Shown here: positions 5,376 through 63,306 of the stretch, one piece after another
How positions within the stretch are numbered: position 1 is the stretch's first letter
Layout of the letters: every line of letters begins with the position of its first letter
NCBI GenBank assembly: GCA_964016885.1
Contig: OZ024750.1
Location: 25,916,001-25,980,000 of the forward strand
Length of the DNA stretch: 64,000 bases
Source of the DNA: Eledone cirrhosa
Lineage: Eukaryota
Reading direction: 5' to 3'
Program-made: the position numbers and the translations under genes
Notes under the pieces: generated by a model
The model's input: the letters and a program-made list of their open reading frames with translations, nothing else
Told to the model about the DNA's origin: nothing
Databases searched by the model: none

Positions 5376-5559
5376 ATATATATATATATATATTAGAATT
5401 GGTGCTCTGAAATAGCGATATATATATATGAATGTATATATAGTGTATTTTGCAATACACTGTATGCTTAATTAAAAGCATTTTGAAGACCTTACGCTAT
5501 TGTTTTAGAGTAGTGACGGTCTCATTTACTTTAAATTTTCAGCAAACAGGAAGAGATAA

Positions 5560-5604
5560 AGCTGACAGAGCTCTGTTTCGTACTATTTGGTACTTATCAA
5601 AGCT
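5560..5604 (-). ncRNA. hammerhead ribozyme, U3-A8 core variant (mirror copy)
   Basis: Reverse complement of the motif at 5975-6019. Confidence 0.75.
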
Positions 5605-5974
5605 AAGTACTCCACCTGTTTGCTGTAAATCATGAATGTTTGATTCTTATAGCAAACAGGTGGAGTACCAAATAGTACGAAACAGAGCTCTGTCAGCGTT
5701 ATCTCCCTCTGCTTGCTGAAAATTTAAAGTAAGTGAGACTGTCACTACTCTAAAACAATAGTGTAAGGTCTTCAAATTGTTTTTAATTAAGCATACAGTG
5801 TATTGCAAATTACACTATATATACATTCATATATATATCGCTATTTCAGAGCACCAATTCTAATGTTCAATTTCTGTTTGACCGGCAACCGCTCTGTATA
5901 ATCAGTTCCTCATTATTACTAGAATTCTATAAGAATCAAACATTCATGATTTTCAGCAAACAGGTGGAGTACTT

Positions 5975-6019
5975 AGCTTTGATAAGTACCAAATAGTACG
6001 AAACAGAGCTCTGTCAGCT
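5975..6019 (+). ncRNA. type I hammerhead ribozyme, U3-A8 core variant
   Basis: AGCT-TTGATAA-GTAC-CAAATA-GTAC-GAAA-CAGAGCTCTG-TC^AGCT. Helix I extends through TTTTCAGCAAACAGG pairing with CCTGTTTGCTGAAAA. Confidence 0.8.
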
Positions 6020-6470
6020 TTATCTCCCCCTGTTTGCTGAAAATTTAAAGTAAGTGAGACTGTCACTACTCTAAAACAATAGCGTAAGGTCTTCAAAATG
6101 CTTTTAATTAAGCATACAGTGTATTGCAAAATACACTATATATACATTTATATATATATATATATATATATATATATATATATATATATATATATATAGT
6201 ATATAGTATATATTATCGTTTAAAAAAAAGGAAAAGAATGACTTCACTTGTAGTGTTAAATAATTTGATTTACTTTTATAATATTATAATATTATGAGTT
6301 GGTAGATCTATATATATATTATACACACACACACACTTACACACACACATACACACACACACACACACACACACACACACACACACACACACACACACAC
6401 ACACACACACATATATATATATATATATATAGAATTCACATGAATCAAAGTTCTGTTCAAACCTTTTATT

Positions 6471-59510: not shown

Positions 59511-60289
59511 CTTTTGTGTATCTATGTATATATATATTCCTGCGATTGTCTGTTTTTTCTTTTTTGTTTTCTGTTATTCCGAACTATATATATATAATAT
59601 TTTACCTTTGAACAGAATTAGAAGGAATACGTCCCGGTTATATAGCGATAATTTTGTTGGTCCCAATTCTGTTCATTTTATGTGTGATTACAGCGATCAT
59701 GTACAGGTATGTGATTTCTTGTATAAATACAATTGTTAGAAGTAATTAGTGAATTTCAATCTGTCTGATGTTTAGATTTAGAATCAATAAAATTGTATTT
59801 TCCTTTTATATTTCTATATTGTGTAATTGATCTCCGTATGTTTCAGCGATGAGTTTTCAATATGAACACTTATTCTCCCAGTTAGGTTGTTCGGTGAATA
59901 TTAATGACCACGTATAATATTAAATGTACTAATTGCAGTCGTTTGACTAATTATTGCCTCATAATTTGACCAGGACATTTAAAAAATTTCTTTTTCACAC
60001 AAACATAGTAATTGTGTTTGATAGGCTAAAACAAGCTTTGCCTTGAATGTTATTTGAATAGAGATACATCAGGCATAAAGTTGGAAACTGTAAAGTATTA
60101 CATCTAGTTCTCAATATTGTGAATTTCCTATATATTTCATATTAGTATTTTATTGTTTGGACTAAAAATATTTTGATTAGTTAATTACATTTTCTATAGC
60201 CCAAGCAATATCAAGTTTATTTTTTATACCGTTACAAGTACAAAATGTCACGAGTCATAGACATACTTATTGAAACAGTTTATAATTGA

Positions 60290-61010
60290 GTCTAATATGT
60301 TAGAATCTTTTAAAAATATCCTTAAAAAAATACTCGTACGAATTAAATACAAAATTTTCAGTCGAAAACAAAAGCAAATTATTTCAAATTATATAATTTT
60401 GAAAAATAGACGTGAATGTTCTCAAAGACTTGATCTCAGTCGAAAAAACTTTTTTTAATTTTTATTCTATATTTCACTGTTAGCTGTTAGCTGTTGCCAT
60501 ATTTGAGTGGATAAACAATTCTACAATTCAAACTGTAAAGTCAAAATACAAAAAATACAAAATGTGAAGGATTTCTTAACTTTCTCTGGAATCACAAACT
60601 CAAGGGAAAAATAGTACCTTGCAAAATAAAGTGCTTCGGTCACAAACTTAGTTGCAAAGAATAAATTGAGATGCTTGGTGACAGTGAGCAAGAAAAATCT
60701 GTATCCCCTATATATATACATAGATAGATACACACGCACACACATGCACGCACACACGCACACACATATACACACACACACACACACACACACACACACA
60801 CACACACACACACACACACACACACACACACACACACACACACACACACACACACACACACACACACACACACACACAAAGCTGTGTGTGCGTGCGTGTG
60901 TGTGCCTTGTTTTTGGTACAGAAAGAATTTTGCCTCCAGTTTATTTTGCCGTATGCTGGGTGAAAGGCCACTGTTCTGTTCAACAACGTAAAATAACGCC
61001 ATACACACAC
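60290..61010 (+). repeat. copy 3 of the duplicated block, continues at 63625-64000
   Basis: Matches 14060-14570 plus 16700-16822, and the reverse of 8400-8775. Confidence 0.8.
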
Positions 61011-61096
61011 GTATATATATATATATATACATATATATATATATATATATATATATATATATATATATATATATATATATATATATATATATATAT

Positions 61097-63306
61097 AGTG
61101 ATAGAACACTGGAAGGTAATATCCGTAGTGGTAGAGCACTCTGTCCATGGGACGAGTTAGGTAGAAGTGGTTACACAACAGTTAGTTCACCATACCGAGA
61201 ACAATTGTCACATCTTAGCGGATCCTCAGCTCGTAATGAATATCGTTATACGTAACAGGAAGGACAACCGTACGAACGCGCATGCGCAGAAACGATCACT
61301 TCACACAGGCAATACTAAATTGCGTGTGAGAGGTGGGAGGGAGATAACTGCGAAACACCCTAGCACCTTTCAAACTGAACTTAGAAATGATTGTAAGAAA
61401 TTTAGGTCTTCTAAAATCCTTTTCGTTCTTTCAGACGACACTAATAATATTTACGAAGTCGACAACACCACTTTCCGCCACTTGGCCCATAACGTTACTA
61501 CTTCCAAAAGCTAACCCTATGGCCTACCACGACATTAATACAGAAACCAAAAGAACTTGCCGCCGCCCTTAAGGTAGATAAGAAGCTACAATCTCTGGCT
61601 AAGCAGGAAGTTCCTCACCCTGAAAAATCACAAGGTAGACTTTACTTCTAACCCCACAATAAACCTGGCACGCACAGATATGGGAGTAGTCAGTAAGGCC
61701 ATACTTAGAAACATAGTTAAGACCATTTGGACCAAGTCCAACCTGTCCCAGGGGGAGAACAGCGACTCCTTAATTAAGTGGTTTAACTCCTTCAAATACA
61801 AAAAAGCGAAGTTCACACAGTTTGACATTGTTTATTTTTACCCGTCGATCTGAGAGACCCTGCTAAACAAAGCGTTGGACTTTGCTACCACTTACACTAC
61901 CGTCGATGTTTTCGACAGGGAAATCATCGCTCCTCTTCAACAACGGATTAGCCTGGTCAAAGAAGTCAACAACTTCAGACCTATTCGACGTCTCAATGGG
62001 ATCATTTAACAGTGCTGACGTATGCGACTTGGTTGTCCTATTTATTTAAGACATATTACACGGGAATATACCGCGACGATGGACTGACCTTATCGAGCCA
62101 TAAAAGTGGTCACGACCTCGACCGGTTTAAAAAAGACTTAGCTTCTAGTTTCAATGAGCTAGGACATAGGATAACAGTAGCTACCAACCTCTCTAGCGTA
62201 GATTTCTTAGACATTAATTTAGACCTTCGCACACACACCTACAGACCCTTCCATAAGCTAAACGAAAAACTCAATTACATACACAAGGACTCACGCCACC
62301 CTCCCACTGTTTTTAGAAACTTCGTAAATAATATCAGTACTAGAATCTCAAACCTCTCCTCTACTAAGGCTATCCTTGACAGGGCGGCACGCTATTATAA
62401 CACGGCGTTATCTAACAGCGGCTTCTCGCAACCTATCACTTACTCTCCCACTAACAACAACAGCAATAAGAAAAGAAAGCGTAACAATAGACAAACTATC
62501 TGGTTCTCTCCTCCCTTCTCACTCAACGTTAAAACCAACGTAGGCAAAAACATTCTAGCCCTCTTAGATAGACACTTTCCCATAGGTCATAATTACCGCT
62601 CCATCTTTAACCGACACAAAGTAAAACTAGGATACCCCTGCGCTAAGAACAAGAGGGCCCACATCACCAACAGCCCTAAGAGCAACACCCCACCAGGGTG
62701 CCCTTGCCGTAAACCCGAAGCTTGTCCCCTTCAACAGCAATGCAACACCGACCAAATCAACCACAGGAGGTCAAATCCTATGTGTGTATGGCGGAGGGCC
62801 GATTTAACGAACGCTTCCTGAACCACCAGTCGACCTTTACGTACCCGGCTAGACGTTCATCCACGAAACTCGCGATCTACGTATGGTCCCTCAAGGACTC
62901 AAGTATAGACTACTCCATTCAATGGAAAGCCATCACTAAGTCCAAGCCATACGCAAGGGGCAATCCGTCGTGTGGACTATGTATAAATATTCTAAAGAGA
63001 TTACGCAATAGTGATTGCCTAAACACGAGATGAATTCTTCACACATTGTCCACACGTCTGGAAACCTCTTCCATAACTACAAATCTCCGTATTGAATTCC
63101 AACAGCATCCTATTTTTCTTATCAACTACAAAGTTATCTCCCTTACACCTCTCGCACGCAATTTAGTATTGCCTGTGTGAAGTGATCGTTTCTGTGTGTG
63201 AGCGTCCTTCCTGTTCCGTATAACCATGTCCATTACGAGCTGAGGATCCGTTAAGGTGAAACAATTGTTCTCGGTATGGTGAACTAACTGTTGTGTAACC
63301 ACTACT
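61097..63306 (+). mobile_element. Penelope-like element (RT plus GIY-YIG), 5'-truncated, ~180-bp inverted terminal duplication
   Basis: FTQFDIVYFYPSI, MGSFNSADVCDLV, GIYRDDGL, VDFLDINLDL, IWFSPPFS, CPCRKPEACPL, FNERFLNH, CGLC. Arms 61167-61349 and 63132-63302. (TA)n on both sides. Confidence 0.9.
63236..63273 (+). ncRNA. minimal hammerhead ribozyme at the PLE 3' end
   Basis: CGAG-CTGAGGA-T-CC-GTTAA-GG-T-GAAA-CAATTG-TT^CTCG. The inverted left copy has lost its GAAA. Confidence 0.75.

What the first reader, a model, noticed from the sequence alone, without database searches (positions are those of the whole stretch)
5393..63306. Dense community of fold-back and tandem mini-elements carrying palindromic-helix-III hammerhead ribozymes in (TA)n tracts
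Seen: about a dozen largely unrelated families, over 20 readable copies in 64 kb, fit helix I-(C/U)(U/C)GAN(G/A)A-helix II-GAAA-helix III-UH-helix I. In intact copies helix III is a loopless palindrome (CAGAGCTCTG, CAATTG/CAGCTG, CATATG, CCGG, CTAG, TATATA, CTAATTAG, TGATCA, CG). Most copies are inverted pairs next to (TA)n. Established: PLE termini carry minimal hammerheads that can cleave as dimers, and PLE insertions often have inverted partial duplications. Inference: many families here have no coding sequence and look like non-autonomous retrozyme-like RNAs mobilised by PLE RT. The density and family diversity in one locus is the potentially new part.
Basis: partly seen in the sequence, partly recalled or inferred. 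Interest (0 to 1): 0.85.

Follow-up and report, generated by a model that had tools for sequence, protein, structure and literature searches.

The report
Penelope-type ribozyme elements and ORF-less retrozymes
This stretch of an animal genome is packed with real hammerhead-ribozyme motifs: most mark the tail ends of Penelope-like jumping genes, while four families are short non-coding repeats that likely hitch a ride on the Penelope enzymes, a known kind of element whose insertion footprints are unusually clear here.

Summary
Observation confirmed. There are 25 credible type-I hammerhead motifs with self-complementary helix III. Palindromic hits number 19, against at most 0.02 in shuffles. They fall into 13 families, and 24 of 26 descriptor hits have a (TA)n tract just 3'.

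Interpretation partly supported. Eight families (B, C, E, G, J, K, L, P) are 3' ends of coding Penelope-like elements (PLEs). Four (A 321 bp, D 420-516 bp, F about 540 bp, I 2.6 kb) are closed, ORF-less units; H is unresolved. The ORF-less units carry the PLE insertion footprint: (TA)n targets, head-to-head fold-backs, and a 'tail' on one arm only in 26 of 31 fold-backs. D forms arrays of up to 16 units and has 24,001 exact core matches genome-wide.

The density is not special to this locus. The genome holds roughly 100,000 such motifs (extrapolated), and the window is a hot spot of about 9-fold.

All the ingredients are published: PLE minimal hammerheads (2014), animal retrozymes (2020), and retrozymes as non-autonomous PLEs (2026 preprint). 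This scan noted similar cases on other genomes. Cleavage, circles and the helper element are untested.

The parts
5392..6159 (.). Family A fold-back insertion (ORF-less 321-bp unit): minus arm 0.81 unit with tail, plus arm 1.55 units; hammerheads 5600-5564 (-) and 5979-6015 (+), U3-A8 core, palindrome CAGAGCTCTG
6427..6844 (.). Family B truncated 3' end of a coding PLE; hammerhead 6513-6475 (-), U4C core
14580..16690 (-). Family K: GIY-YIG remnant (16473-16120), 3' UTR and hammerhead 14697-14670 (palindrome CG)
28924..29889 (.). Family L fold-back of a coding PLE 3' end; palindrome CATATG, family core has A at position 4, window copies further decayed
30234..31178 (.). Family C fold-back of a coding PLE 3' end; hammerheads 30343-30314 (-) and 31008-31037 (+), palindrome CCGG, tail on one arm
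31239..31655 (+). Family D, diverged subfamily, partial unit; hammerhead 31289-31319
32595..33036 (.). Family E fold-back; hammerheads 32782-32734 (-) and 32932-32980 (+), helix III TATGTA; this young subfamily was not traced to an ORF
33090..33781 (.). Family F fold-back (ORF-less unit of about 540 bp); hammerhead 33351-33280 (-), partial 33648-33781 (+), palindrome CTAATTAG
33839..34178 (-). Family B truncated 3' end; hammerhead 34096-34058
34257..35457 (+). Family D head-to-tail tandem (516-bp spacing); hammerheads 34564-34594 and 35080-35110, palindrome CTAG, U10.1-U11.1 mismatch
38655..39556 (.). Family D, diverged subfamily, fold-back; hammerheads 38905-38875 (-) and 39276-39306 (+)
39616..40024 (-). 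Family F diverged copy (78% identical to the 33.1-kb copy)
41274..41821 (.). Family G perfect fold-back of a coding PLE 3' end; hammerheads 41475-41431 (-) and 41721-41765 (+); the one-sided tail matches the 5' UTR of the full-length element in L314
41860..42300 (-). Family H; hammerhead 42010-41977, helix III CATTAGTG; coding status unresolved
43690..46951 (.). Family E fold-back with RT/GIY-YIG remnant 46430-45354 (-), AT-rich 3' UTR, hammerhead 43883-43835 (-) and decayed partner 46844 (+)
47008..50005 (.). Family I complete ORF-less 2.6-kb unit (-) with hammerheads 49718-49669 and 47115-47066, plus a partial inverted arm 49778-50005 (+); palindrome TGATCA
50158..50873 (.). C-related fold-back with decayed hammerheads
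51284..51619 (-). Family B truncated 3' end; hammerhead 51543-51505 with the compensatory palindrome CAGCTG
52790..55960 (+). Family P: RT/GIY-YIG remnant (to 53931), AT-rich 3' UTR, hammerhead 55861-55911
56123..56560 (.). Family E fold-back with decayed hammerheads
57459..57786 (-). Family I diverged truncated copy; hammerhead 57712-57663; not linked to the neighbouring RT remnant at 58377-59600
61098..63305 (.). Family J: decayed inverted arm (61098-61349), RT/GIY-YIG remnant (about 61500-63033, +) and hammerhead 63240-63269 (+)

Best explanation
The window is a (TA)n-rich hot spot of nested insertions from 13 hammerhead-bearing families: eight are truncated, often folded-back 3' ends of coding Penelope-like elements, and four (A, D, F, I) are closed non-coding units that are likely copied in trans by Penelope reverse transcriptase and GIY-YIG endonuclease, from an RNA that the dimeric hammerhead would cut to unit length and that probably circularises. 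Shown: the motifs, the ORF linkage or its absence, the unit lengths, and the insertion anatomy (fixed 3' ends joined to TA, variable 5' ends, head-to-head arms, a one-sided tail, arms longer than one unit). Inferred: a tandem transcript pairs two palindromic helices III and cleaves. The monomer is ligated. The endonuclease nicks (TA)n. Reverse transcription starts at TA-like sites 70-310 nt downstream of the cleavage site and runs through that site for one or more turns, and the second DNA strand primes at a second fixed site, giving the tail. Each new insertion ends in TA and so offers a target for the next.
For: Closed units: D repeats at 463 bp in arrays of 16.3 units (L210) and in a fold-back of 8.2 + 5.5 near-identical units (L212); F repeats at 534-540 bp, A at 321 bp. 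In the first 100 genome matches listed, same-strand spacings are 420-538 bp for D (29 links) and 511-545 bp for F (14 links). For B they are 4172-4199 bp (4 links, plus one of 2635 bp), and one such B unit holds an intact 832-aa ORF. There is no tblastn hit to 14 PLE protein pieces in A, D, F or I. None of the 17 D hammerhead contexts met in loci not picked for D (window included) continues into a PLE ORF; they keep the D unit architecture, although D subfamilies are only 74-76% identical. PLE footprint: one short-ended and one tail-ended arm in 10/10 F, 10/14 A and 6/7 D fold-backs, as in the coding families C, E and G in the window and as described for PLEs (PMC3846280, PMC8557442). A TA run follows 37/45 A, 36/41 D and 22/33 F 3' ends; most other F ends run into (TC)n. 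Ribozyme selection: the core is more conserved than the flanks in 9/9 families. The only variants at >=10% inside the D motif in public contigs are at N7 and loop II. The palindrome changes compensatorily (CAATTG/CAGCTG). Sense-strand circular folds are more stable than shuffles (z -7.5, -7.8, -4.3 for A, D, F).
Against: No autonomous partner was found for A, D, F or I. They share no sequence with 12 coding loci beyond separate inserted copies, and two apparent links of I to an ORF turned out to be neighbouring insertions. Circle and linear multimer are not told apart by DNA. Long arrays were partly enlarged after insertion: L213 has a six-unit periodicity of variants, and L212 has a variant three units apart on one arm only; identical units may also reflect assembly polishing. 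5' ends do not pile up at the cleavage site in A (5/45, 5.7 expected) or D (2/29, 2.6 expected); only F shows a cluster at +5 to +16 (7/29, p=0.005 for the +-20 window). Minimum-energy dimer folds give the active dimer only for C and F and partly for A, of 9 families. Several cores are non-standard (U4C, U4A, 10.1/11.1 mismatches), and in the 2026 preprint only 1 of 9 Xenopus dimers cleaved. Loci were chosen as best full-length matches, which inflates the share of arms longer than one unit.
Confidence: 0.75

Rival explanations
1. The elements and the Penelope helper are the same, but the template is a linear multimeric transcript of a tandem master copy. The hammerhead cuts rarely or only trims the 5' end, and no circle is involved.
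For: Reverse transcription runs through the cleavage site: of 87 distinct post-cleavage contexts, none starts exactly there, and the 3 flagged are mutated motifs. PLE minimal hammerheads cleave poorly in vitro (PMC4209133). The F cluster of 5' ends at +5 to +16 and the full-length G copy that begins at its cleavage site (ambiguous because the palindrome is itself TA) fit run-off from a cut linear RNA.
Against: Fold-backs with several near-identical units on both arms (L212 8.2+5.5; L134 1.9+1.9; L026 3.4+1.5) and array-specific variants shared by all units are what one small circle would give. Canonical animal retrozymes are reported as circRNAs (PMC7229834).
Confidence: 0.35
2. The closed units are dead-end pLTR fragments that grew into minisatellites by unequal crossing-over and were spread by DNA-level duplication.
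For: Higher-order periodicity in L213 and L212. The window lies in a tandemly duplicated cluster in which H, L and I copies were duplicated with the host DNA. The 2026 preprint raises this model.
Against: The units occur at many dispersed loci with unrelated flanks and 97-99% identity. Each has its own 5' truncation, fixed 3' ends at TA and one-sided tails. Sequence upstream of the hammerhead is the unit's own tail, not a PLE 3' UTR.
Confidence: 0.08
3. The ORF-less units are SINE-like passengers of another reverse transcriptase, such as the LINE types also present in the window, not of Penelope elements.
For: No PLE partner with a matching pLTR was found; LINE-type RT ORFs lie in the window.
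Against: There are no poly-A or LINE-like 3' ends. The fold-back-plus-tail anatomy matches coding PLEs of the same genome. ARAGORN finds no tRNA in A, D or F.
Confidence: 0.07

Closest known systems
Minimal hammerheads in pLTRs of metazoan Penelope-like elements (Cervera & De la Pena 2014, PMC4209133; Lunse et al. 2017, seen only as cited in PMC6765202 and PMC7761336)
   Same: Type-I topology, short palindromic helix III predicted to work as a dimer, U3-A8 variant, many unrelated families per genome, opposite-strand pairs 100-700 bp apart, mostly truncated copies.
   Different: The bulged base after position 9 with G10.1-C11.1, typical in that paper, is seen only in K; B, D, F, H, I and J have a 10.1/11.1 mismatch. 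B has a fixed U4C (99 of the first 100 of 4,572 matches) and L a fixed U4A (23 of 23). The estimated number here (about 100,000 in 3 Gb) exceeds the 2,000-9,000 per genome reported there.
Insertion structure of endonuclease-positive PLEs (Arkhipova et al. 2013, PMC3846280; Craig et al. 2021, PMC8557442)
   Same: 5' truncation, partial tandems, an inverted 5'-truncated copy, a tail on one of the inverted repeats, (TA)n targets; non-autonomous multicopy head-to-tail derivatives such as MRC1 are mentioned.
   Different: Tails here run from about 26 nt (A) to 100-110 nt (F, G), against the 30-40 bp described; four families have no ORF and no detected coding partner.
Animal non-LTR retrozymes (Cervera & De la Pena 2020, PMC7229834; review PMC7761336; Li, Clavereau & Pollet 2026, bioRxiv 10.64898/2026.07.22.740005)
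   Same: Non-coding tandem units of a few hundred bases, low GC, one type-I hammerhead per unit, monomers to multimers, proposed PLE helper and circular intermediate.
   Different: The 2020 families have canonical hammerheads; these have the minimal dimer type, which the 2026 preprint also admits. The preprint sampled no mollusc and argued from co-occurrence and pLTR similarity, and the review says no motif points to the helper. Here the insertion anatomy itself matches PLEs. circRNA and cleavage are untested here, and I (2.6 kb) is longer than the 51-972 bp reported.

Membership tests
PLE minimal hammerhead (pLTR) | Type-I hammerhead core with helices I and II | tested here: met
   24 hits against 0.7-1.0 in shuffles; core more conserved than flanks in 9/9 families
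PLE minimal hammerhead (pLTR) | Absent or short palindromic helix III | tested here: met
   19 palindromes of >=4 nt against <=0.02 expected; compensatory CAATTG/CAGCTG
PLE minimal hammerhead (pLTR) | Lies downstream of an RT + GIY-YIG ORF (families B, C, E, G, J, K, L, P) | tested here: met
   B in L194, L196-198, L369; C in L199-203; G in L314; L in L321, L324, L325; P in the window and L330; E, J, K in the window only. The young E subfamily was not traced.
PLE minimal hammerhead (pLTR) | Lies downstream of an RT + GIY-YIG ORF (families A, D, F, I) | tested here: not met
   Closed units without PLE hits
PLE minimal hammerhead (pLTR) | Lies downstream of an ORF (family H) | tested here: inconclusive
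   7 dispersed copies all truncated within about 400 bp
PLE minimal hammerhead (pLTR) | Bulge after A9 with G10.1-C11.1 | tested here: not met
   Both together only in K; G-C without bulge in A and C; mismatches in B, D, F, H, I, J. U10.1-U11.1 is a known active variant (PMC3088659)
PLE insertion | 5' truncation, inverted copy, one-sided tail, (TA)n target | tested here: met
   26 of 31 fold-backs of A, D and F; 3' ends at TA
PLE minimal hammerhead (pLTR) | Self-cleavage as a dimer | not testable with these tools
   Folding alone is inconclusive
Non-LTR retrozyme | No coding capacity | tested here: met
   Longest ATG frames 37, 139, 41 and 72 aa for A, D, F and I; no PLE tblastn hit
Non-LTR retrozyme | Head-to-tail units, each with a type-I hammerhead | tested here: met
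   D up to 16 units, F at least 5, A 2-3; I only as partial tandems
Non-LTR retrozyme | Unit under about 1 kb (families A, D, F) | tested here: met
   321, 420-516 and 511-545 bp
Non-LTR retrozyme | Unit under about 1 kb (family I) | tested here: not met
   2.6 kb; better called a non-autonomous PLE
Non-LTR retrozyme | Canonical loop 1-loop 2 tertiary contacts (2020 definition) | not tested
   The motifs look minimal; no tertiary-contact analysis was run
Non-LTR retrozyme | Expressed as circular RNA | not testable with these tools
   No RNA holder listed

The most novel reading that the evidence does not exclude
Families A, D and F are tiny circular-RNA replicons that Penelope enzymes copy round and round straight into (TA)n. 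Both DNA strands prime on the same circle at two fixed TA sites. That would be direct genomic evidence for how animal retrozymes move and would explain the one-sided 'tail' of Penelope insertions in general. It occurs in a genome with about 100,000 hammerheads, including coding families that spread with U4C and U4A cores.
Probability: 0.4. Interest if true: 0.72.

Novelty: new member of a known kind. Interest (0 to 1): 0.45.

Why it matters
Which machinery moves animal retrozymes, and what PLE hammerheads do, are stated as open in PMC7761336 and PMC8557442. This genome offers young, near-identical ORF-less units with a clean PLE footprint, an intact candidate helper type (832-aa ORF in L369), and exact predicted cleavage and priming sites. 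The circle-and-trans-mobilisation model can therefore be tested directly. It also shows that Rfam-based annotation misses most of these motifs: RF00163 returned 18 matches (74 of 415,510 candidates scored), against 24,001 exact matches for one family pattern.

Tried and rejected
(1) Rfam scan of the window: only sub-threshold miRNA-like hits on fold-backs and microsatellites. (2) The first, strict descriptor found only 8 palindromic hits because it disallowed the 10.1/11.1 mismatch. (3) I first read family I as the 3' end of the ORFs in L204 and L206. Rejected: it is a fold-back inserted tail-to-tail at that element's own TA end, and that element has its own hammerhead-like motif. The link of the 57.7-kb I copy to the RT remnant at 58.4-59.6 kb is also rejected: that remnant ends at about 58377 in all 5 non-cluster-type copies checked that carry it (L352-354, L357, L358). 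(4) I first took the A unit as 310 bp; cleavage to cleavage it is 321 bp. (5) DNA search for family G returned 0 candidates; G was resolved from incidental copies. (6) No RNA holder listed for the D unit; contigs of 4 runs show presence only. (7) Run-off at the cleavage site: not seen in A or D, a cluster in F. (8) ARAGORN: no tRNA in A, D or F. (9) Dimer co-folding is inconclusive. (10) Locus-specific density: the window exceeds the genome mean about 9-fold, and the flanking 100 kb has 12 hits, but the families are genome-wide. (11) Lunse et al. 2017 was not held. The preprint's supplements are closed and may bear on family lists. (12) The host organism was not identified; an octopus-like genome is my recalled impression only.
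Full report
Setting. The window is G000:C10:25,916,001-25,980,000 of a 3.0-Gb genome in 1,796 contigs. It covers introns of a gene with cysteine-rich EGF-like exons and a transmembrane-like exon (translations; no Pfam hit for the two exons scanned, so 'EGF-like' is my reading). 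Best matches for several window pieces cluster at C10:25.85-27.3 Mb, which indicates a tandemly duplicated cluster. The repeat landscape looks octopus-like to me; that is recalled and untested.

Observation. A type-I descriptor that allows a bulge or a 10.1/11.1 mismatch finds 24 hits, 19 of them with a palindromic helix III of at least 4 nt. In 200 shuffles the means were 0.73-0.95 and 0.00-0.02. A wider setting lists 26 hits, of which 25 are credible, in 12 families. Family L adds a 13th, with A at core position 4 in 23 of 23 genome matches. 24 of 26 hits have (TA)n within 250 nt on the 3' side, against 26% of random sites within 300 nt. In BLAST-collected homologues the core deviates 1.6%, the palindrome 2.7% and the flanks 6.5%; the core is lower than the flanks in 9 of 9 families, though copies are not independent. 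In public contigs the variants at 10% or more inside the D motif (34564-34594) are at N7 and loop II only.

Coding families. B lies about 1.5 kb downstream of an RT/GIY-YIG ORF in L196-198 (about 1.9 kb in L194); L195 and L209 were truncated before it. A full-length B with an 832-aa ORF lies between hammerheads 4,172 bp apart (L369). C follows an ORF with RVT_1 (E 2e-6, just under the cut-off) and GIY-YIG (E 1e-6) hits in L200; the same ORF family is in L199, L201-203 and L208, and L207 was uninformative. G is full-length in L314, where the 5' UTR equals the one-sided tail of the window's fold-back. L is collinear with an ORF in 3 of 7 dispersed copies. P is downstream of ORF remnants in the window and in L330. 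E (43.9-kb copy), J and K are downstream of remnants in the window. The young E subfamily at 32.8 kb could not be followed more than about 650 bp in 25 loci and three extensions. H stays unresolved.

ORF-less families. D is a closed unit: the sequence 3' of the hammerhead runs through a TA-rich spacer into the sequence that lies 5' of it. The 40 candidates scored gave 139 matches, most at 98-99% identity and many at 463-471 bp spacing. L210 holds 16.3 units, and L212 a head-to-head pair of 8.2 and 5.5 units. None of the 17 D contexts in loci not picked for D (window included) continues into a PLE ORF; they keep this architecture, although subfamilies are 74-76% identical. F (534-540 bp) and A (321 bp) are closed in the same way. 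I is a 2.6-kb unit, complete in the window and nearly so in L204 and L205. None of the four has a tblastn hit to 14 PLE protein pieces. Exact pattern counts are D 24,001, I 3,545, F 2,380 and A 308, with B at 4,572; all reversed controls gave 0. In the first 100 matches of each list, same-strand spacings are 420-538 bp for D (29 links), 511-545 bp for F (14 links) and 4.17-4.20 kb for B (4 links). Head-to-head pairs outnumber tail-to-tail pairs 60 to 5 over the four lists.

Insertion anatomy. 3' ends fall at a few fixed positions downstream of the predicted cleavage site: A about 144 and 170-173, F 70 and 182-190, D about 186, 243-249 and 302-308. Most are joined to TA runs. In fold-backs one arm ends at the short site and the other carries the tail in 10/10 F, 10/14 A and 6/7 D cases. 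[quoted passage not shown] Arms longer than 1.05 units are 28/45 A, 18/33 F and 18/41 D; these shares are inflated by picking full-length matches, and the D values are blurred by the spacer. So reverse transcription passes the cleavage site, which needs a circle or an uncut multimer. 5' ends are not enriched at the site in A (5/45) or D (2/29); F has 7/29 at +5 to +16 (p=0.005 for +-20 nt). Units within an array share array-specific variants, but L213 shows a six-unit periodicity and L212 a three-unit one on one arm, so arrays also grew after insertion.

Density. Sixty evenly spaced 10-kb stretches hold 20 palindromic hits in 14 stretches, two of them probably chance, against 0.1 in shuffles. 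That extrapolates to roughly 90,000-100,000 genome-wide, with wide error. The window's 19 is about 9 times the mean and was never reached in 100,000 resamples; the flanking 100 kb has 12. The sample includes window families (D, E, C, F, J-like, G-like, P-like) and others. Published counts are about 4,000 in coelacanth and 9,000 in Xenopus (PMC4209133), and over 6,000 in a coral and 126,247 in the far larger axolotl genome (PMC7229834).

Mechanism. Shown: motif, family status and anatomy. Inferred, in order of falling confidence: PLE-type target-primed insertion into (TA)n; trans-mobilisation of the ORF-less units; dimer cleavage; a circular template with two priming sites. The helper is not identified. 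No RNA run is listed as a holder, which says nothing about expression.

Literature seen. PMC4209133: parts 1-2 of 4 of the text. PMC7229834: passages and Discussion. Passages only: PMC8557442, PMC6765202, PMC13282606, PMC3846280, PMC6962438, PMC7761336, PMC3088659 (U4C and U10.1-U11.1 are known there, and the term U4A was not found). Lunse et al. 2017 was not held. Eight searches listed no paper that describes these families or documents the PLE fold-back-plus-tail footprint on ORF-less retrozyme units; subscription journals and repeat databases were not searched.

Verdict. A correct and sharp observation. Most families are ordinary PLE ends, and four are new members of the non-autonomous PLE/retrozyme kind. 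The added value is the footprint evidence for the helper type and a ready test system. Interest 0.45.

Noticed in passing
window 27321-27455, 37843-37977, 42466-42600, 42787-42915, 43094-43228, 56929-57063, 59612-59706 (+): Exons of a cysteine-rich EGF-like repeat protein and a transmembrane-like exon; the region is repeated many times over C10:25.85-27.3 Mb, and related sequence clusters at C2:310-315 Mb.
   Followed up: partly
window 7553-7760 and 63420-63593: A very common short TA-associated repeat with an internal inverted repeat (8 of 60 evenly spaced stretches); no hammerhead found by the descriptor.
   Followed up: partly
L372:830-3503 and L370:794-2366: Further ORF-less units: B-type hammerheads 2,635 bp apart and I-type ends 1,413 bp apart, with no PLE protein hit.
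   Followed up: partly
L206:3079-7232; L204:4364-8452; L371:2400-4303: A common coding PLE family with asparagine-rich inserts whose 3' UTR holds a hammerhead-like core without a clear helix III.
   Followed up: partly
L314:4838-4896: The full-length G element begins at its own predicted cleavage site, but the palindrome is TA-rich, so target and element cannot be separated.
   Followed up: partly
evenly spaced and other loci, e.g. L217, L259, L263, L268, L321: More hammerhead families absent from the window, with palindromes TGCGCA, GTAC, CTACGTAG, CGCG, CCATGG, CTGATCAG and TGCA.
   Followed up: no
window 16851-24680 (+): Two LINE-like RT copies (92% identical over 1.8 kb; RVT_1, zf-RVT and an upstream endonuclease hit) ending near (TCTA)n repeats.
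   Followed up: no
window 1672-3909 (+) and 25400-28200 (-): Other LINE-type RT remnants, unrelated to the hammerhead families.
   Followed up: no
window 58377-59600 (-): RT/GIY-YIG remnant of a PLE that ends without a detected hammerhead in the dispersed copies checked.
   Followed up: partly
L202:4183-8096: LTR-retrotransposon-like ORFs next to a family C fold-back.
   Followed up: no
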